A stretch of DNA of 63,101 nucleotides, filler included, from Collodictyon triciliatum (Eukaryota): the NCBI GenBank assembly GCA_043381765.1. It is 6 parts of 6 records of this genome, joined end to end, with 100 filler letters (N's around TTAATTAATTAA, not from the genome) between each part and the next. Parts side by side here need not be neighbours in the genome. Positions count along the whole stretch, not along the records: positions 11,208 to 23,112 come from JBHJMP010002283.1; 5 more parts are not named here. One strand, written 5' to 3'. The translations under genes were made by a program, and so were the position numbers. Below, in pieces: positions 11,108 to 23,427 of this stretch. Position 1 is the first letter of the stretch. Each line of letters begins with the position of its first letter. The notes below the pieces were generated by a model. It had not been told where the DNA came from, ran no database searches, and saw only the letters and a program-made list of their open reading frames with translations.

Positions 11108-11207
11108 NNNNNNNNNNNNNNNNNNNNNNNNNNNNNNNNNNNNNNNNNNNNTTAATTAATTAANNNNNNNNNNNNNNNNNNNNNNNNNNNNNNNNNNNNN
11201 NNNNNNN
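11108..11207. other. Artificial scaffold spacer (44N-TTAATTAATTAA-44N); same spacer at 23113-23212, 35120-35219, 47128-47227, 56321-56420
   Basis: Five identical 100-nt spacers with a six-frame stop linker. Several adjacent genes are truncated at them. Confidence 0.97.
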
Positions 11208-11400
11208 GAAAAAAAGAAAAAAAGAAAAAAAGAAAAAAAGAAAAAAAGAAAAAAAGAAAAAAAGAAAAAAAGAAAAAAAGAAAAAAAGAAAAAAAGAAAA
11301 AAAAGGATGGAAATTAAAAGGAAAAGCTTTGCGACTTGTTTATCTAGCACCCGGCTTGGGCTGGGACTGTTGTAATCATCCGCCTAGACTCACCACTAAT

Positions 11401-14400
11401 ATGCACAGAACAAAGAAGATGGTGCGAGTACACCTTTTGGACTACGGCGCCGGAAATGTGAGAAGTGTTATCAACGCCATCCGCAGTCTTGGCCACGGTC
11501 AGCAACTTACTCTTTTCTTCTGAAATGTGCTGTCGTGAAATTACCGCACCAGACATAATCGACTATGCTTTGCTTCTCACTCCAACATGATTCACTTTGC
11601 TCTTCACTTGCTTCCTACTTCATTATCCACAATATCGAACATCACAAGTGCCCTATAGCATCCTCTTTCCCCCTCATTTGAGTCACAATACAAATCGAAT
11701 GATTGCCCTTGTTATTATTTCTATTTCTATTTCTATTTCTATTTCTATTTCTATTTCTATTTCTATTTCTATTTCTATTTCTATTTTTATCATCATTATT
11801 ATTTATTGCTATTTCTATATTTATTGTAATTAGCTTGATTTCATTTTAAGGCGCAATCAAAAGCAAGTTTTCTTTTTGTATCTTTTACATGCTTTTTCGT
11901 TGATCCTGACATATACCACACCTTTTCCTGACACACAAAAGAAATACCAACTTATGCTCTCATTTCACACAGACGTGGTAGTGATTGATAAGCCGGAGGA
12001 GATTGCTGATGCCGAGAGACTGGTTTTTCCTGGTGTAGGAAACTTTGGAAGTGCTATCACGCGATTGAGAGATAGAGTATGTATCTTATGACAATTGTTT
12101 TCACATAATTCTTAAGCCCAAAAAACACATCATTCTTTTTCTTTTTGCCTGAAAGTATTTGCCATGGTTATGCTCTCCCACTGTAGGGATATATAGCGCC
12201 ACTTTTGGAGTATATCGAAAGCAATAGACCATTCCTTGGAATATGCCTTGGAATGCAGGTATTTCTCTTTGATATTCGATTATACTAATGATTTTTCCAA
12301 TATCTTAATTAATATTACGCGGACGAAAAATAGGATTGACATAGCATATTCCGATGAAATTATTTTTTTCAATTTTGTAATAATTTGTGTATCAAGCTTC
12401 ACACTTACCTGATCTACGTAAACAGACTCTATTCGAGAGTAGTGAAGAATTCCAAGGTATCCCCGGCTTGGGCATTTTCCCTGGGAAAGTGGTTCGCTTT
12501 CAACCTTCTGAAAGTAACAGGCATGTTTCATATCTATCATTATTTGATATCCACAACAAAATGCTTTGCATTTAACAAAGGAGAGACCATTCGGAGTAGC
12601 TTTCTTTGATCCATAGTTATTCGTTCTAAAAATAATAACACATATTTGGAGCATATTCAATTGAGTGATTTTTATACTGACCTTGTCTCTTCCTTGACTA
12701 CCACTCTTTGGTATACCCGTAGAATTGCTGTTCCTCACATGGGATGGAATGGCATCACGTACAGAAAAACGGGCGTTTTTGAGGAGAAAGTTATTACCGA
12801 ATCAAAGGTTCAAAAAATCGAAAAAATTCTGAGTAAAGTCAACGAATATGAACACCATCCCAAACAGAAATCTACATAAGATGTATGAAATAACACTTGC
12901 GCGAAAAATAGGAAAAAGATCTGTACTTTGTGCATTCCTACTACGCTCAAATAGAAGAAGCAAACAAACCCTACATACTAACAACAACAGATTACGGAGA
13001 TTTCAAGTACCGGATTCTCATACCAAAAAAAAAATACACACATTGATACACTCATTATAAAATCCATTATATATCGCCAAGAATTATGGATACCCTAGAT
13101 GCGCGCATACTGTACAAACCACAGTATCTTTTATATGAATACAATTTGTGTGTGAAATAACATAAAAATATATTGAGCAGGTTCATTAGTTCTGTTCAAA
13201 GGGGACGAATTGTAGCGATGCAGTTCCATCCAGAGAAAAGCGGGCTTGTGGGACTTTCGCTGCTTGATGCATTTCTCAATATTCCCATTACTGACCCTAT
13301 CCCACAATCAATCCCATTTGATGGTATGTTTATGAGCGGGCAACAAAACAGTTTCTCAAACATCCTCGTGGTTGTTTTATTAATCAATGTTATTTTCCAC
13401 CATATAAATAAGTATAAAACATGTAAATAGGCACGGAGGACAAAACCACACAGTTTTGCAAAAGAATTATCGCTTGTTTGGATGTAAGGTCTAATGATTC
13501 TGGCGAGCTTGTTGTTACCAAGGGCGACCAATATGACGTCCGTGAAAAGAGTGGCAAGGTATTTTCATATTCACTTTTCCTGATTAAAAACTAAGAATAA
13601 AATGAGTTGCATAAGTTCTCTGAATTCGAGATTGTTCCTATAAAACAAAGTATAGTATATCCCTTACAGATGTCAAAATGTCTAGACTAACCTTTGAAGG
13701 TTACACATCTATAGGGGGATGTTCGTAATTTAGGAGACCCAACAGAGATGTCTCAGCGATATTACGAAGAAGGCTCGGATGAGATTACATTTTTGAACAT
13801 CACCAGCTTTCGAAACAACCCGCTTGAAGTACTTACTTCAAAACAAATATCCAACACCGATGAGTTATTTATGCAACTTAAATTATAATGCATAGAATAT
13901 TGCTTAACTTTGTCTATTTTCTTCTTTTATCTTTTCTAAAAAAGAAAAAAAGAAAAAAAGAAAAAAAAGAAGACAATAGCAGACCTTCTTTCAAACAAGA
14001 TCTTGAAATATTTGCTGTGCAATTCATCAGTTTCCTTACCCTATATCTTTCTTCTTCCTATGCAGGACTCCCCGACCCTGGAATTGCTAAAGCGAACATC
14101 AGAAAGAGTTTTTGTTCCTTTGACAATCGGCGGCGGTATTAGAGGCTACACGGACTCTAATGGAAAGTAAGAATAGTATATGCTAGCTGACATAACATTT
14201 GTATTTTCTAAGTAAATCTTTAGAAATTTTTTTCCCTAACGCTGTTATTTCCTGCCAGGCTATATTCAGCCCTGGACGTAGCCTCCGAATACTTTCGATA
14301 GGGTGCTGATAAAATCTCAATAGGAAGTGATGCTGTTATTGCTGCTGAGGTGGCTGTTTCTACTATTTTAAGCATGTGTACCAGGAACCATAGAATTTCC

Positions 14401-15754
14401 CCTATGAATGGATATCACAAAGACTGAATAGCCTTACTTAAGGGACGTACCAAACAAATATAATTATCTAACCATATGCATAACAGGAGTACTATGCAAA
14501 CGAGAAACAGCTCAGAGGCACCACAGCTATCGAACAAATATCGCGAGTGTACGGAAATCAGGTACGTATCACAATTCTTGTACTCAGGGCGCGACCAAAG
14601 TTATTGAATCAATGAGATAACCACTTTTTTTTAAAAAATAAAATAAAATCACTCTCCCATAAAATACTACTAATGATGTATTCAACGTGGCATTTATTAT
14701 CCAAAGGCTGTTGTTGTCTCTGTTGACCCGAGGCGTGTTTATGTGAGCGAACCGTCTGAAACAAAAAATCATACCATCCAAACAGCTCGACCGGGGCCAA
14801 ATGGAGAAAAGTACTGCTGGTATCAGGTTCGCATGGAACTCGTAGTTTTCATGATTTTAATGAAAAGGCGAGGCACCTAACCATACCGACGCATAATCAG
14901 TGTACCATCAAAGGAGGAAGGGAAGGGCGAGACATTGGAGCTTATGAACTTGTCCAAGTGAAGCACTTTAGATTCTTCTCTTTCTTTCCTTTATTTTCTT
15001 CTGCTTATACAACCATGTCTCTTGACTGATTTTTTTTTTTTGCCTATTTATGGTGTACTACTTAAATGCGATTGTCCAGGCATGTGAGGCTATGGGTGCT
15101 GGAGAAATCCTACTGAACTGCATGGATATGGATGGGCAAAACCAGGTATGGGTATTCCTGTCTGGTATATGCATTTGCCAACTTTGTTGTCTTTGTTGAT
15201 TGAAACCTCACAACCTCCAGTCAAGTTCAGAGAATTTTAATGTATGTGAGTGTTCGATGAATTCAGTTGCTGACTCGCATTTTCATCCACGCAGGGATAC
15301 GATTTGGAATTGATTGCTGATGTCAAGAGTGCCGTCACCATACCTGTCATCGCTTCTTCTGGTGCCTGGCGGCCTGTCCACTTCAGTGACGTTTTCAAAA
15401 GGTGCGTCCCATGGAATGACACAAAATAACCACAATTCTCTGTATATTTTCCACAGAACGATGCCTAGCGAAGGTTAAGTTTCCTTTTTTTTTTTTTTGC
15501 CTACAAATATCGATATATTTGTTGTTGTTATTGTTATTTTTTTATATTATTGTTATTGTTATTTAAAAAAAAAGTGAGGATTTAACCTTGGATGAGTCCC
15601 GTTCATTTATACCAATTCCAACGCTGAACAAACCTCATGCAGCACGGATGTGGAAGCTGCGCTCGCTGCAGGCATTTTCCATCGCCGTCAAGTGACTATT
15701 GCTGAGGTCAAAGCACACGTCCTTGAATTGGGTATTCCGGTCCGAAGAATCTAA
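11401..15754 (+). CDS. HIS7: Bifunctional imidazole glycerol phosphate synthase (glutaminase HisH + cyclase HisF) with an in-frame TAG at 14299-14301; possible young pseudogene, recoded gene or base error
   Basis: Spliced exons give [114 protein letters not shown]. Terminal TAA 15752-15754. Start ATG 11401 or 11419. Confidence 0.95.
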
Positions 15755-16066
15755 TGGCACAACACATTAAAATCTGGCGACACCACGAGCAATAAATCAA
15801 CATAACCAGAATCCCAGTGATAATCTGATTTAGACTAGTATCTTCAGGCAGATGTAAATCATAATGTTTAGATTATCATTGTTTCCTATAGTATTCTCTT
15901 ACATGGAATATCATGTTCAATATTGTCATACAATACCTCTTCTAATGCCTATTCTAATGCACATACCTATCACTATTCTGACAACGCTGGATTTCGTCCG
16001 GCTCCAAAAAGAAAAAACTCTCATTATTAGTATCATAAGAGTTAGACTTTCCCCTCACAATAAGAA

Positions 16067-16139
16067 GCTTCGATGGCTCAGTTGGTAGAGCGTGGGTCTC
16101 ATAATCCCAAGGTCGTGAGTTCGATCCTCACTCGGAGCA
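16067..16139 (+). tRNA. tRNA-Met(CAT), elongator type
   Basis: Acceptor stem GCTTCGA/TCGGAGC, D-arm GCTC-AGTTGGTA-GAGC, anticodon loop CT-CAT-AA with T31:T39, T-arm GTGAG-TTCGATC-CTCAC. G1-C72 and TTCG T-loop argue against initiator. TTTTT Pol III terminator follows at 16140. Confidence 0.95.
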
Positions 16140-17222
16140 TTTTTGCTTTTACTCCGGGATGAGTTCCACTTTTGGGTAAGAATATCGGAAGATCACACAC
16201 ACCCCCCACTTTTTTTTTTCGACAGCAATTCCGCACCTTGGAAGCGGCCGGGTGGGTGGGGAAATGTGGGTTATGGGCATTTGGCCAATCGAGTGGCAAG
16301 TTTGGATGCGCATACAGGGGCACTCGTGCGCCCAATAGAGAAAGCGAAACCTACTGTACCTCCATGATCTCTTCTGTGCGGCGCGTCTGATTGCTTTCTC
16401 CAAACGCTTTGGGCGCCTCAAGGAAGCTGACTTTGCAAGGCGGTTGTTCGCGAGTACGACGGGACACAGACGAAAGGGAAAGTCTGCACAAGAAGGATTG
16501 CAACGCCCGAATGCGCCCTCAGAATCCCCGCCACGTCAAGAAAATAAAAGTTGGAATCAGATTAATCTGAAAAAACAACAACAACAACAACAACAACACC
16601 CACGAAGGACACTTGATCGAAGTCCGACCCTCACGCGCTGCGAGGCACCTGTGGAAGAAAAAACAAAAGAGAAGGGACAGCAAAAAAAAGAGAGGCTTTG
16701 CATATTGTCTCGTGACCTTCCGCAGCGAGGCTTGTGGCGGGGCTTTGGTTTGTTGGCTGGGCGGCGGGGTTCACAGCGGCTTAAGCTTGGCGCGACTTCA
16801 GAAGGTTATCTGCTATGCAGCTGGCGAAAAACTTGCCGAGTGATTATCACGAGCGGGCCATGACTGCAACTCTAGGTGCTCTCTATTATCCAGAGACACT
16901 GACTTCCGTGACACATTACTGATGTTCAATATGAGCCGACTATTAGCCTAACCTCACTCAATCGCCAGCGCGCCTGTAATGACCTCGTTGGGCGATAACA
17001 CTGAACACTGAACCTCTCATCACCTTAGCTCTGTTCCCTTTTGTGCCCTCGTCTATCCTCAAATATCTTTCATAAACTCTTATACCGAATGATTCTCAAG
17101 AATGCATGAGTTGTCTTCTAATATACCCCGTGTCTCTTTCGTACAAAACTTTGCCTTCTGTGCATATACATAATACCAACATTCCTGACTCAATAAAACG
17201 ACTTGCAGGGCCGACCCAACCA

Positions 17223-20200
17223 ATGGCGCAGGCGACAAACCCATTCCTCGCAGCCATCCAGCGGCATCCCATACGGACTCCTGCGCTTCATTCAGACTTT
17301 GACGACCCAATCCAGACTCATTGGGCCTCATACAAAGCTCGCAGCTTGGCCCCTAAGTCCAAGGAACGCAACCTGGAGGAAAAGCCAGCCTCTTCACAGC
17401 AACAACTCCAATCTGTCCAGCTGAAGCGAGTTTGCGAGCTCATTCCTCCATTCTTTCATGAAACAGACTATGGAAAGGTACTTCGCCTCTCTAATCACTT
17501 GACTGATGCGCGATATGATGATTTACTATATGATGGTCTGCATATAAATATCTATAAAACAAAAGGCTATGGTCCAAATAAGGGTTAAGCGGCTCTTGTA
17601 CCACGCCACTCATAAGGAAAATCGAAAGATTGCGAAACTGGATTTTCCGAAGGTGATTTTTTTTTTCGGATTACCTCTAAATTACGTGTAGTATATAATC
17701 ATAAAACTGCCATCGACTCGCAACAAAATTCAATTATATATTGATAATCGACTTTGATGCTTAACCGCTATCACAGGGCCGGTTCGCATTAAGCGAAGAA
17801 GAGCTGAGGAAAATAGAAGAAGACAACAAGGCAGAGTTTATAAAGTCGTGGAAGGCATTTTGCAGAAGAGACGCAGCGAAGGTTCCATTTATCAACACCT
17901 TCTTTCGATTGAATATTATATCAATGCCAAACATATATTCTCTCAGTTACAAACTATTGAAGTTCATTTTCTTTTTCTCTTACTTTTCTCCTTCTTCATC
18001 ATATGTAGGCATACCGAGACTTCAATCTCAAGAAATTAGCTATCATGGCGTAAGATTCTACTATATATGTATTCAACCATATGAAGATAAGGGTGCAACC
18101 TAAAAACCATTCATTTTCAATGTTTCTCAATCTGGTTTCTACGCTCACTCGGAATTCGGACTGCAAAAGCATTTCTATTGTATTTTTAATCCAAGTAACG
18201 AAAATATTCACGAGTTTTTATATGTTTGACTCTCAAATATAGCATGGCAAAAAAGAATGCGCAATTATGCCAAAAAGAAGTGAAGAGGCGCACTCAAAGG
18301 TCAATCAAGCTATACCGAGATGCACCTATTCGCGCAAAAAAATTGATAAGAGAAGTATGTCCCATTTCATGTATTCTTAAGAAACAATAAGTCAATTTCA
18401 AAATACCTGAAATATTTTTCCTCTCAATAAGTGTTAATTTTTTTCTTATCACGTTTTGACACCCTTGAATATTTCTTGAAAAATTTGCTTGAAAATTTTA
18501 CCATGCTAGAATTTCTATATTGCACTCTGCTACCTGTCTATTCTATTGTAAGAAAACCTTATTTAGATGCTACAATATTGGAAGCGAACTGAAAAGGAGG
18601 CGATGGAAAACAGAAAGAAGGCCATGAAGGAGGCCGAAGAGGAGAGAAAAAGAAAGGTCATCTGGAATTATACAAACATTTGTCCCTTTCATTAACAGGA
18701 AAGTATCCTTTATCGTGTATTCTTATTATCTGCGGTGTGAAAATATTAGGAGGAACTACGAGAAGCCAAGAGACAGCAGATGAAACTAAACTTCCTTCTA
18801 ACCCAAACAGAGCTTTTCAGCCATTTCATTGCTCGGAAGATTCAAAGTTTTTTAATGAAAAAATCACGATTTAGACTTTATCTTATCTTAGTTATGCAAT
18901 TATCATCATTTTTGTCTTCTTCTCCTTGAGTCAGTAGTAACCGTTCGTGACGAATTAAACATTTAAACAGAAGAACCCGGAGATGAATCAGAAACGGAAA
19001 ATAACCCAGACAGTATCGATGTTTTGGATTCTGATATTAAAACTGGTATATATTTTTATTTATTTTTTGCTTCGCCCTTATGGTAATTTAAATATTACGG
19101 TAAATGTGCGATAATATCACAATTCTAATAGTGATTTTTGAGAAAGTTAAGGGTGGTTTGGCAAGGAAATAAGATGAATCAAGTACATTTGATAGTACGA
19201 TATTCTACGTACTTAATTAAATATTCCATACAGATTTTGCGGACATAACAGAAGAGGAGTTGATGAAGCGCGCGCAACAAAAGTCTCAAATGGCTTTGCA
19301 GAATCATAATGAAAGAACAAAAATGTTTGACGAGGATTCGAAGGTGAAAAAATAAACATATGAGTCTACATCGAAGAATAATAGTAAGAATGTAAAAACA
19401 GCATAACGTAAATGAACTTTGGTTTATGTTCAACAGAGACGTAAAGAGGAATCAGAGCAGGCCCATCTCCAGGCAAGCCAATCAAATACTTTATTTTACG
19501 TTTGCTTTTATATCAGGAGCGCTCTTGTTCCCATCCGTTAAAAAATAAAAATAAAATAGTAATAAGAGTATATTTTACTATCTTTGAGCTGGCATTGGTG
19601 CTAATTGTAATTTATAACCTATCTGCAGAGAAAGGGACATAATCATAGCAACAGCACGGCCATCGGCCAGTCAAGTAAGTCTAAAAAATATGATTTAATG
19701 GTGTGGCTATCATATATGAAATACTTATCTGAATATAAATAATATCTGAAAATAGTTGATGAAGTGGATTTCCTCAATCCCTCCAGTTTGCAGTCAGATG
19801 AACTTATTTCTCAGGTTGGTAATTAAAAATTCACACATACAATTTCTTCAATCCTTTTCTGGTCCAGTTGAAGAAAAAAAAACATTCGAAAAATAAGAAA
19901 ACCAGGCGACCTGAAGATTATCTCATATGAACGTAGCCGAAGACTTTCAAGGGAGATTTAAAGCAGTACCAGTTGAAAGGGTTGACTTGGTTGGCCAATC
20001 TATACGAGCAGGTAATAGTCCAAGGAAAAATTTCCTAGTTCACCCTTATTTAAAATTTTGATCATTAAAAGCAACGCTTTAAACATTTTGTAAAATAAAC
20101 TCTTCAACAAACTTAAAATGCTGATAATTCTGAAGGGTATCAATGGGATACTTGCGGACGAAATGGGTCTTGGAAAGACCGTTCAAACCATATCTTTCTT

Positions 20201-20728
20201 GTGCCATTTGGCTGAGGTAAATCAATATCAAATAAATTTATATAATGTAATATTTACCACTAACTTCTTCTGAGTATGGAAAATATTTATCCTATAACTT
20301 AAATAATTTACTGGTATGTATATTCATAGGATGTTTTTCTCATTTTTATTTTTATTTTCCGGATAGAATCGCGACATTTGGGGACCTTTTCTTATAATTT
20401 CTCCATTTTCTACACTGCACAATTGGCAACAAGAATTGTCAAAGTTTGCTCCTCATTTCCGGGTTCGAATCTATTTGACATTTTCACCATACCCTTCCGT
20501 ATGTGACACATACAGTACTTACTTTGTCAAAAAATATTTTTGAGTACCAGTTAATTCAATCCCAAAATTAAATTATGCTATATCTGTGATAACATCTTTT
20601 ATTTAATTCATACCTCTATAGACAATACCATATTGGGGGCCAGTAAATGACAGGAAAATTCTGCGAAAATACTTCAACCCGAAGCTCCTATATAGCGCCG
20701 ATGCACCTTTTCACGTATTAATCACCAG
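17223..20728 (+). CDS. INO80: INO80 chromatin-remodelling ATPase, 5' part (DBINO + start of SNF2 ATPase), truncated at gap
   Basis: [23 protein letters not shown] (DBINO), [67 protein letters not shown]. Confidence 0.93.
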
Positions 20729-21373
20729 GTTTTGAGGAAACTAGCTTTATTTTGATAGAAGCTTGCTNNNNNNNNNNNNNNNNNNNNNNNNNNNNNNNNN
20801 NNNNNNNNNNNNNNNNNNNNNNNNNNNNNNNNNNNNNNNNNNNNNNNNNNNNNNNNNNNNNNNNNNNNNNNNNNNNNNNNNNNNNNNNNNNNNNNNNNNN
20901 NNNNNNNNNNNNNNNNNNNNNNNNNNNNNNNNNNNNNNNNNNNNNNNNNNNNNNNNNNNNNNNNNNNNNNNNNNNNNNNNNNNNNNNNNNNNNNNNNNNN
21001 NNNNNNNNNNNNNNNNNNNNNNNNNNNNNNNNNNNNNNNNNNNNNNNNNNNNNNNNNNNNNNNNNNNNNNNNNNNNNNNNNNNNNNNNNNNNNNNNNNNN
21101 NNNNNNNNNNNNNNNNNNNNNNNNNNNNNNNNNNNNNNNNNNNNNNNNNNNNNNNNNNNNNNNNNNNNNNNNNNNNNNNNNNNNNNNNNNNNNNNNNNNN
21201 NNNNNNNNNNNNNNNNNNNNNNNNNNNNNNNNNNNNNNNNNNNNNNNNNNNNGTTTGGTTTGGTTTGCCTTTGTATGATTTTCTTTTTTCTTTTTCTTCT
21301 GCACAATCGTAAAGCCTCTGACCGCATTATTCTTGTGGGAGCCAAAGAGAAACCCCAACAAAGAGCTACACGG

Positions 21374-23047
21374 ATGACCGAGGACGAGTCTGATCAGACG
21401 GTGTTTGTGCTCTTGGCCACGGTTGCTCCGCTGCTTTCGGGGCTGATTCCGCTTCTGTGTCTGCAGGCTTCGCAAGGCCGATTCTTTCGCTGGATGTTGG
21501 CGCTCTCTGCCGGGCTTTTGCTGGGCATCGGCACGCTGGATTTGATTCCCGAGGCTTTGCAGCTGGCGTTGAAGGTGCATAGGGATAACAGCATTTCTTT
21601 TCGACGTCACTAAGGCGGGAGGAATCATCTCTAACCATATTTTTCTGTCATGAATGATAATAATTATTCTTATTCTTATTCTTATTCTTATTCTTATTCT
21701 TACAATTATTCTTATTCTTATTCTTATTCTTATTCTTACTATTATTCTTATTCTTATTCTTATTCTTATTATCTGGATTTCAATTTACCTAAAATTTTCA
21801 CTTTTATTTTATGCTCTGTTCCTCATATTAGATAAATCTATTATCAGAACCACACAGAAAATGGTGTATCTGGTGGCACTAAAACTGGCATCGATAGTTT
21901 TGAACATCTTGACCATCATGATGCACACGAAATTAATCAACATTTATCTGTCACATGGATGCATCCTGTCAGAGTGTAATTTTTTTTATTGAAAAAAATC
22001 ATTACATACCTTGAGCTACATATATATTCACAAGAGTGATTTCTTTTTTTCCTCCATTATTTTCCTCTCTAAATTGCCGTTTACTGGAGATTTTGCTGAT
22101 TTGTTGGTATTGTTGTCATTTTTATTTTCCTCAAGATGACATATGCATGCTATTACATGTTTACTGTTTTATATGGATAGCTATTGCTGGGTTGTATGCT
22201 TTTCTAGTATTCAGAGGCTTTTGAGAATACTGATTTGAATCTGCTCGCTCCAACTTAAACATTTTTAAAAGAAAATTTGAAACTTTTGCTCATGTTTTGC
22301 GCAGCCTTTTACGTGCTACGAAGCAATGCCTAAAAAATATGTCGTGGGCCTCACTAAATCATGTATAAATTTTCACATAATGTTATCATTTGGAAAGTTT
22401 ATTAAGAAAACAAAAATAGTAAAAGTAGAAGGTCGTAAAAATAAGTAAAATAAAAAAATAATCTTTTTTTTAACGTCATGTGGAAAATAACGCAAAGAAA
22501 GAGCAGCTTTCTGACGAAGATGTTGAAACCAACCATGAGCACGGCCATCGTCACATCCATGAACCCAGCGTACCGAATGTAATGGTGGGCATATTTATGG
22601 GCTATATGGTTTTGCTGGGATTGGAAAAGCTATTCATGGGTCACCATTCTCACGGAACCGGAAAGAGGAGTGGTTCTGACGGCGAATGCGACGACCATTC
22701 AGACCACAGAAAGGTCAAATATTTTTCTTCTCATCTTTGCGCATTCTATTCATATGTCTATTTTCTTGTTCAACTTGAAACTTTTGTCCGTCATATTATG
22801 TATAATATTGATTGTTGTCGTCTTTCATCTGCCATTTTATTAATAAAAAGAAAAAAAACATGGGTAAAAGGGATCAACTTCTCTGTCATCGGGGTTTTCA
22901 TACACCGTTTTTCTTGCTTTCATCGTTCACTCATTTGCCGATGGATTTTTGATATCCGGAGGGTTTGAGTCATCCCACAGCATCGGCACGCGCGTGGCTC
23001 TTGCTGTTGTATCACACAAGTTTCCAGACGGTTTTGTCCTTGCATCG
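21374..23047 (+). CDS. ZIP (SLC39/ZupT) metal transporter, 3' truncated by spacer
   Basis: ALSAGLLLGIGTLDLIPEA, His-rich loops (HEHGHRHIH, HHSH), TM4 HSFADG and TM5 HKFPDG. Confidence 0.88.
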
Positions 23048-23427
23048 GTCTGCATAATTATTCTCTTATGATGCCAACACCAAAAAAAAAAAAAAAAAAA
23101 AAAAAAATAAAANNNNNNNNNNNNNNNNNNNNNNNNNNNNNNNNNNNNNNNNNNNNTTAATTAATTAANNNNNNNNNNNNNNNNNNNNNNNNNNNNNNNN
23201 NNNNNNNNNNNNGAATAAAAAAGAATAAAAAAGAATAAAAAAGAATAAAAAAGAATAAAAAAGAATAAAAAAGAATAAAAAAGAATAAAAAAGAATAAAA
23301 AAGAACAAAAACAAGAACAAAAACAAGAACAAAAACAAAAAAGAAAAAAGAAAAAAGGGATGAAACAGGAACAAAAGAAAAGCAGCCAGCGATCGGACAA
23401 TGTCATATTGGCGTGTATCCTGTCACT

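What the first reader, a model, noticed from the sequence alone, without database searches (positions are those of the whole stretch)
14299..14301. In-frame TAG at a conserved Ser position in an otherwise intact HisHF (HIS7)
Seen: the exon reads GAA TAC TTT CGA TAG GGT GCT GAT AAA (EYFR*GADK). All downstream exons keep frame and splice sites to a normal TAA, and the glutaminase triad (GICLG, HPE) is intact. Known: plant/fungal HisHF reads EYFRSGADK, and TAG is one C>A change from TCG. Inference, five options: (a) very recent pseudogenisation of histidine biosynthesis; (b) base-call error; (c) rare UAG recoding or readthrough; (d) A-to-I editing UAG>UGG, as in fungal premature-stop correction; (e) removal as a 24-nt GT..AG mini-intron (14278-14301), which would delete the conserved VASEYFRS helix. 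Every other gene end I could assign uses TAA or TGA; the only possible TAG terminator is an ambiguous one at 62500-62502.
Basis: partly seen in the sequence, partly recalled or inferred. Interest (0 to 1): 0.7.

Follow-up and report, generated by a model that had tools for sequence, protein, structure and literature searches.

The report
Private stop codon in histidine gene
The stop codon inside this protist's histidine-synthesis gene belongs to the assembled copy only, because transcripts of near-identical cells read the normal serine codon, so it is an ordinary broken allele or sequence error and not a new genetic code; the same check showed in passing that the gene's messenger RNA appears to carry a trans-spliced leader.

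Summary
The TAG at 14299-14301 is real in the assembly. It is codon 353 of a 17-exon, single-copy HisHF gene, 81.5% identical to Diphylleia rotans; the column is Ser in 116 of 119 homologues. TAG ends HSP70, IGPD and HisA, eRF1 is canonical, and no exonic stop was seen in 162 conserved matches. This excludes the mini-intron and UGG editing in those cells and makes recoding very unlikely. Best reading: a private null allele (0.55); rival: two base errors (0.37). No DNA read covers the site. HisG, HisIE, HisA, HisB and HisD show no exonic stop. The scan noted one similar stop (TGA at Cys) elsewhere in this genome. Side result, worth more than the finding: the cDNA starts with a leader absent in cis but present 39 times in the genome, 19 as SL-RNA-like genes. 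This points to spliced-leader trans-splicing in a CRuMs protist, which my searches did not find in print; one earlier scan note mentions a trans-spliced mRNA here.

The parts
14299..14301 (+). In-frame TAG at codon 353 (Ser in homologues); cDNA of X1 and X2 reads C at 14300 (TCG)
15367..15369 (+). Second lesion: TGG (Trp) at codon 500 of the SSGAG motif, Gly in 119 of 119 homologues; cDNA of X1 and X2 reads G at 15367 (GGG)
11419..15754 (+). Fused HisHF (imidazole glycerol phosphate synthase) gene, 17 exons, 547 codons, ends TAA; single copy in the assembly
14259..14349 (+). Exon 11, both borders seen as cDNA joints; the 24 nt 14278-14301 are retained in cDNA
   Evidence: tables 5 and 8
15295..15401 (+). 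Exon 16: 4 differences from both cDNAs (listed: synonymous 15333 and 15357, and 15367; one unlisted), a more divergent block than the rest of the gene
14712..14712 (+). Synonymous T where RNA run X2 and DNA run X3 both read C
12521..12722 (+). GC-AG intron 4
   Evidence: joint 12518/12721 with 2-nt ambiguity
11396..11408 (+). Branch-point-like CTAAT and CAG acceptor 11 nt before the start codon; the X1 cDNA is joined here to a leader not encoded in the window (probable trans-splice acceptor)
   Evidence: (table 7)

Best explanation
The TAG is a private change of the assembled haplotype, not a property of the species' code. Most likely it is a real, recent nonsense allele (TCG>TAG, S353*) of HisHF that also carries G500W at an invariant glycine: one decaying copy, while a functional TCG/GGG allele is expressed in near-identical cells and may exist in the sequenced strain too, collapsed out of a heterozygous assembly. 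Shown: the DNA letters, the cDNA letters, standard use of TAG, and no exonic stop in five other His genes. Inferred: the lesions are biological; a 352-residue product would keep the glutaminase domain but lack more than half of the cyclase barrel; the stop lies 473 nt before the last exon junction, so the mRNA would be a nonsense-mediated-decay candidate; a prey-eating protist (recalled biology of collodictyonids) can tolerate the loss.
For: Two independent damaging changes in one 1,644-nt CDS, both absent from the cDNA. G500W sits 10 and 34 nt from two synonymous transitions, so exon 16 is a truly divergent haplotype: P about 0.013 after correction for 17 exons, post hoc, assuming 7 differences in about 1,500 nt. 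The assembly holds haplotig-like pairs of 92-98% identity with mostly transitions, 57 of 92 substitutions. No exonic stop in 162 Pfam matches (11,735 model positions) plus about 1,000 His-gene codons. A uniform C>A/G>T error rate of 1 or 2 per HisHF-sized gene predicts 2.7 or 5.4 stops, P(0) = 0.067 or 0.005.
Against: No DNA read or contig covers 14300 or 15367; JGI metagenome scans found no conspecific DNA. Both lesions are C:G>A:T, the class typical of oxidative damage artefacts (recalled, no call), although that class made only 17 of 92 haplotig differences. Exon 11 shows no linked synonymous difference. No second haplotig of the gene exists in the assembly. The error test assumes evenly spread errors, uses housekeeping genes, judged stops as intronic by eye, and dropped one multi-intron row (C5025:823-2652). 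Ploidy is not shown.
Confidence: 0.55

Rival explanations
1. Both changes are consensus errors (base-call or DNA-damage/amplification artefacts) and the strain's gene is intact.
For: cDNA of two runs restores both conserved residues. Both are C:G>A:T. The gene is single-copy in an otherwise stop-free pathway. The assembly is fragmented (14,576 contigs). An earlier scan note reports a TGA at a conserved Cys in this genome (e1-7302055, not tested here).
Against: No exonic stop in about 12,700 surveyed positions. Synonymous transitions flank G500W. Two errors within 1.1 kb need local clustering.
Confidence: 0.37
2. Restorative substitution editing: the DNA has TAG and TGG, and the mRNA is edited A-to-C and U-to-G to restore Ser and Gly.
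For: Both DNA/RNA differences restore near-invariant residues, and no DNA run shows TCG.
Against: The cDNAs also differ at synonymous sites, and one of these (14712) is shared by DNA run X3, which marks them as other haplotypes. Four different change types would be needed. A literature search (listing only) showed no title on such a nuclear repair system outside reports of mixed-type nuclear editing in a dinoflagellate (PMC5357065, listing only).
Confidence: 0.03
3. UAG is reassigned or read through as Ser.
For: The TAG lies at a near-invariant Ser column. The tRNA search was incomplete (63 of 2,646 candidates scored).
Against: cDNA has TCG. TAG ends HSP70 (after EVD), IGPD (after PSTKGVL) and HisA. 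eRF1 has intact GTS, E55, TASNIKS, L69, S70 and YLCDNKF. No tRNA-CUA in 42 of 63 tRNA hits checked or in 29 pattern loci. G500W would remain unexplained.
Confidence: 0.02
4. A-to-I editing to UGG, or removal of a 24-nt mini-intron (14278-14301).
For: UAG is the preferred target of fungal restorative editing (PMC11156358, PMC10776026; search listings only). The 24 nt begin GT and end AG.
Against: The cDNA letter is C, not G. 0 of 119 homologues have Trp. X2's contig retains the 24 nt. The gene's introns are 74-475 nt.
Confidence: 0.02

Closest known systems
Diphylleia rotans HisHF (EukProt EP00002, P0003) and yeast His7 (PDB 1JVN)
   Same: Fused glutaminase-cyclase of the same length; 81.5% identity to P0003; GICLG and HPE intact.
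   Different: The assembled copy has a stop at Ser353 and Trp at Gly500; both relatives have Ser and Gly.
Nuclear UAG-only reassignments (rhizarian exLh and Iotanema, PMC5304391, passages read; phyllopharyngean ciliates, PMC11687900, abstract read)
   Same: An in-frame UAG at a conserved column with UAA as terminator.
   Different: There UAG is widespread as a sense codon, with suppressor tRNAs or altered eRF1. Here it is a single site, absent from cDNA, and TAG still ends genes.
Fungal restorative A-to-I editing of premature stops (PMC10776026, PMC11156358; search listings only)
   Same: A premature TAG in a conserved gene whose transcript is open.
   Different: The transcript codon is UCG (Ser), not UGG (Trp), and the RNA comes from cells with other haplotypes.
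Spliced-leader trans-splicing of cryptomonads (Roy 2017, PMC5619915, part 1 of 3 read) - for the side result
   Same: Leader not encoded in cis, AG acceptor on the gene, about 20 genomic copies with a GT donor, clustered on both strands, U-rich tract behind the donor.
   Different: Inferred exon 51 nt against 17 nt; U-tract preceded by C, not a purine; copies interleaved with U2 genes; seen on only one mRNA contig here.

Membership tests
Nuclear UAG stop-to-sense reassignment | UAG widespread at conserved sense positions | tested here: not met
   0 exonic stops in 162 matches (11,735 model positions) and five other His genes
Nuclear UAG stop-to-sense reassignment | UAG not used as terminator | tested here: not met
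   Of 15 ends read, 4 were TAG: HSP70 C4220, IGPD C1289, HisA C2454, and an ambiguous CCT end on C2013; several of the other rows ran into introns or were blank
Nuclear UAG stop-to-sense reassignment | mRNA retains UAG | tested here: not met
   X1 and X2 contigs read TCG; they are not shown to be the assembled strain
Nuclear UAG stop-to-sense reassignment | Cognate tRNA-CUA | tested here: inconclusive
   None in 42 of 63 scored hits or 29 pattern loci; only 63 of 2,646 candidates were scored
Nuclear UAG stop-to-sense reassignment | Altered eRF1 stop-recognition motifs | tested here: not met
   C2305 eRF1 has GTS, E55, TASNIKS, L69, S70, YLCDNKF (motif list from PMC5304391; residue numbers matched by recalled human numbering)
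Fungal-type A-to-I premature-stop correction | Transcript reads UGG and orthologues have Trp | tested here: not met
   cDNA reads TCG; 0 of 119 homologues have Trp
Fused HisHF (His7-type IGP synthase) | Glutaminase domain with Cys-His-Glu triad fused to the cyclase barrel | tested here: met
Fused HisHF (His7-type IGP synthase) | Open full-length frame with intact SSGAG motif | tested here: inconclusive
   Not met in the assembly, met at both sites in the cDNA of X1 and X2
Spliced-leader trans-splicing (side result) | 5' leader on mRNA, not encoded in cis, joined at an AG acceptor | tested here: met
   One X1 contig; 0 matches in the window at up to 3 mismatches, but N gaps lie upstream; CAG at 11406-11408
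Spliced-leader trans-splicing (side result) | Multi-copy SL RNA genes with a GT donor right after the leader | tested here: met
   19 of 39 genomic copies; shared upstream element; U2 genes in 4 of 8 loci scanned
Spliced-leader trans-splicing (side result) | Sm-type U-rich site flanked by purines, and stem-loops | tested here: inconclusive
   U5 tract preceded by C; hairpin kept by 3 one-sided changes, 0 compensatory pairs in 10 copies
Spliced-leader trans-splicing (side result) | Same leader on many unrelated mRNAs; trimethyl cap | not testable with these tools

The most novel reading that the evidence does not exclude
The DNA of these cells really carries TAG and TGG, and a nuclear substitution-editing system rewrites them A-to-C and U-to-G to restore Ser353 and Gly500. 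It is not excluded only because no DNA from the RNA-sequenced cells covers the two sites. (The spliced-leader result is separate from the TAG; I put it at about 0.85 probability and 0.55 interest, see Noticed in passing.)
Probability: 0.03. Interest if true: 0.9.

Novelty: already known. Interest (0 to 1): 0.25.

Why it matters
The TAG itself matters little (about 0.1): a private null allele or an error in a draft assembly. It is a warning that single in-frame stops in this genome should not be read as recoding. If both lesions were fixed in the strain, it would be a small example of a prey-eating protist starting to lose histidine synthesis. The side result matters more (about 0.55 on its own): spliced-leader trans-splicing in a collodictyonid would add CRuMs to the patchy list of lineages with this mechanism and bear on whether it arose once or many times. 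It would also offer a simple way to express tightly packed same-strand genes here, such as hisB-hisIE 62 nt apart. The overall score of 0.25 reflects both.

Tried and rejected
JGI metagenome scan with a 26-nt pattern open at the middle base of the codon: 0 hits. Scan with the D. rotans protein: the best 80 of 556 loci were 44-72% identical, none conspecific. PF00977 in the own genome hit only an IMP dehydrogenase on C5895, not HisA and not this gene, which shows the family search can miss short exons; HisA was found with TIGR02129. tRNA-CUA pattern: 34 matches against 72 in the backwards control, no tRNA-CUA. Paralogue or second haplotig of HisHF: none. Other departures from homologue consensus, such as A280S (TCT, also a G>T-type change), were rejected as lesions because X1 and X8 agree with the assembly there. 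Readthrough of the IGPD TAG would not fuse it to HisIE, which starts in another frame. HisC, the histidinol phosphatase and the first 37 codons of HisD and first 100 of HisG against the E. coli protein were not checked by alignment. A Pfam scan of the neighbouring genes was not obtained. A literature search on damage artefacts gave nothing useful, so that point is recalled. No supplements were read.

Full report
Observation. Window 14299-14301 is TAG, in frame in the exon 14259-14349. A 17-exon model from 11419 to TAA 15752-15754 gives 547 codons with this one internal stop at codon 353; GICLG and HPE are intact. A spliced alignment of the closest protein finds the same 16 introns, the same stop and no frameshift. 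That protein is the Diphylleia rotans HisHF (EukProt; 81.5% identity), so the genome is probably a collodictyonid (CRuMs); a gene-rich mitochondrial contig fits. The column is Ser in 116 and Ala in 3 of 119 aligned homologues. The gene is single-copy in the assembly.

Transcripts. I laid 4 of 21 listed runs on 11380-15900. Spliced contigs of X1 and X2 (one study; RNA by their intron joints) read C at 14300, giving TCG, and G at 15367, giving GGG. They support 14 of the 16 introns, including both borders of exon 11, and X2 runs through 14274-14347 with one changed letter. So the 24-nt mini-intron and editing to UGG are excluded in these cells. The same contigs differ from the assembly at synonymous sites 15333 and 15357, and X2 at 14712, where DNA run X3 agrees with X2. 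They are therefore other haplotypes than the assembled one. No DNA contig covers 14300 or 15367, and two JGI scans found no conspecific DNA. Contigs also drop rare variants, so a minor UAG transcript would be missed.

Genetic code. TAG is an ordinary terminator here: it follows EVD in an HSP70, PSTKGVL in IGPD, and the end of HisA. eRF1 on C2305 has canonical GTS, E55, TASNIKS, L69, S70 and YxCxxxF (motifs from PMC5304391, passages read). No tRNA-CUA appeared in 42 of 63 tRNA hits or 29 pattern loci, but only 63 of 2,646 candidates were scored. In 162 matches to chaperonin, proteasome, tRNA-synthetase and HSP70 families (11,735 model positions; one multi-intron row dropped), every stop lay at a splice border or in intron-like sequence, judged by eye. 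Known UAG reassignments show widespread sense use (PMC11687900, abstract read).

Pathway. HisD (391 codons aligned), IGPD (189), HisG (191 against E. coli, plus a stop-free N-terminal Pfam match), HisA (5 exon matches) and HisIE show no exonic stop. HisC and the phosphatase were not checked. The pathway is not eroding as a whole.

Null allele or error. For a real allele: two damaging changes in one gene; G500W lies within 34 nt of two synonymous transitions, in an exon with 4 differences from both cDNAs while the rest of the covered gene has about 3 (post hoc P about 0.013); the assembly holds allele-like pairs of 92-98% identity; and an evenly spread C>A/G>T error rate of one or two per gene predicts 2.7 or 5.4 stops in the surveyed set, where none was seen (P 0.067 or 0.005). 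For error: both changes are C:G>A:T, the class typical of oxidative artefacts (recalled); exon 11 has no linked synonymous change; no second haplotig exists; errors may cluster locally; and an earlier scan note reports a TGA at a conserved Cys in this genome (e1-7302055, not tested). I put the null allele at 0.55 and error at 0.37. If real, the product would stop at residue 352 inside the cyclase barrel, and the stop lies 473 nt before the last junction, a decay target by inference.

Side result. One X1 contig carries 20 loose letters before 11407, where the genome has a branch-point-like CTAAT and a CAG acceptor. The motif is absent from the window but occurs 39 times in the genome, with 0 matches for the backwards control. 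Of the 39 copies, 19 look like SL RNA genes: shared upstream element with a TATA-like box, an inferred 51-nt exon, a GT donor exactly at the junction, a hairpin and a U-tract. U2 snRNA genes lie in 4 of 8 loci scanned. The other 20 lack the donor; nearly all have the leader plus AG repeats fused to a LINE-like or other sequence, and one locus has two leaders in tandem, as expected of retroposed trans-spliced RNAs. This matches the evidence used for cryptomonads (PMC5619915, part 1 of 3 read), except that I have only one mRNA and the U-tract is not a canonical Sm site. IGPD and HisIE lie 62 nt apart on one strand with an AG before the second start codon, an operon-like layout. Searches for spliced leader with CRuMs (0 papers), with Diphylleia, Collodictyon, Rigifila or Mantamonas (25 of 61 listed; 2 of these held the term, one checked and irrelevant) and two reviews of its distribution (PMC7986045 Background, PMC5619915 Introduction) do not name this group. 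Subscription journals and supplements were not seen. One earlier scan note calls an mRNA of this genome trans-spliced (e1-7246639); a look-up by the SL sequence found nothing.

Verdict. The TAG is a private null allele or an error, an already known kind of thing, about 0.1 on its own. The probable spliced leader is the result worth following. Overall interest 0.25.

Noticed in passing
window 11396-11408; G000 C4254, C5890, C3106, C532 (L342, L343, L344, L336) and other contigs: Probable spliced-leader trans-splicing: the HisHF cDNA of X1 begins with a leader absent in cis; 39 genomic copies, 19 as SL-RNA-like genes (inferred 51-nt exon, GT donor, hairpin, U-tract, shared promoter), interleaved with U2 snRNA genes. 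Not found in print for CRuMs in my searches. Probability about 0.85, interest about 0.55.
   Followed up: partly
L334, L335, L337, L339, L347, L349, L351, L355, L357, L362, L365-L367 and others: 20 of 39 leader copies lack the donor; most are followed by AG repeats of variable length and the 5' end of one LINE-like element (408-aa frame in L339); L335 has two leaders in tandem. They look like retroposed trans-spliced retroelement RNAs.
   Followed up: partly
G000:C1289:1550-1617 (L241, L368): IGPD (hisB) ends in TAG 62 nt before the probable HisIE start on the same strand, with an AG just upstream: an operon-like pair that SL trans-splicing could resolve. It may bear on the earlier trpC/trpF overlap note e1-7199741.
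   Followed up: partly
window 15367-15369: Second lesion G500W in HisHF, inside an exon with clustered differences from both cDNAs.
   Followed up: yes
window 12521-12722: GC-AG intron in HisHF; HisD and HisG models also use one GC donor each.
   Followed up: partly
G000 C4468/C8552, C12766/C1317, C5314/C2576; C4557/C3661, C4474/C6288: Allele-like contig pairs at 92-98% identity including introns, and older duplicate pairs of CCT and proteasome genes at about 80-90% exon identity; in the CCT pair the exon borders coincide. Heterozygosity, a mixed sample or old duplication.
   Followed up: partly
G000:C834 (L063-L070): 85.5-kb gene-rich mitochondrial contig with rRNAs, many tRNAs, group II intron fragments and frames that read by eye as cox11, sdh2, ccm, nad11 and tatC.
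   Followed up: no
window 16067-16139; about 17000-20700 (+); about 21300-23100 (+): tRNA-Met(CAT), identical to three other copies; an INO80/SNF2-like helicase gene and a ZIP-like transporter gene follow (named by eye from a translation, no family search).
   Followed up: no
window 11108-11208: Scaffold gap holding the spacer TTAATTAATTAA between N runs; the HisHF contig starts right after it, so a cis 5' exon hidden in a gap cannot be strictly excluded.
   Followed up: no
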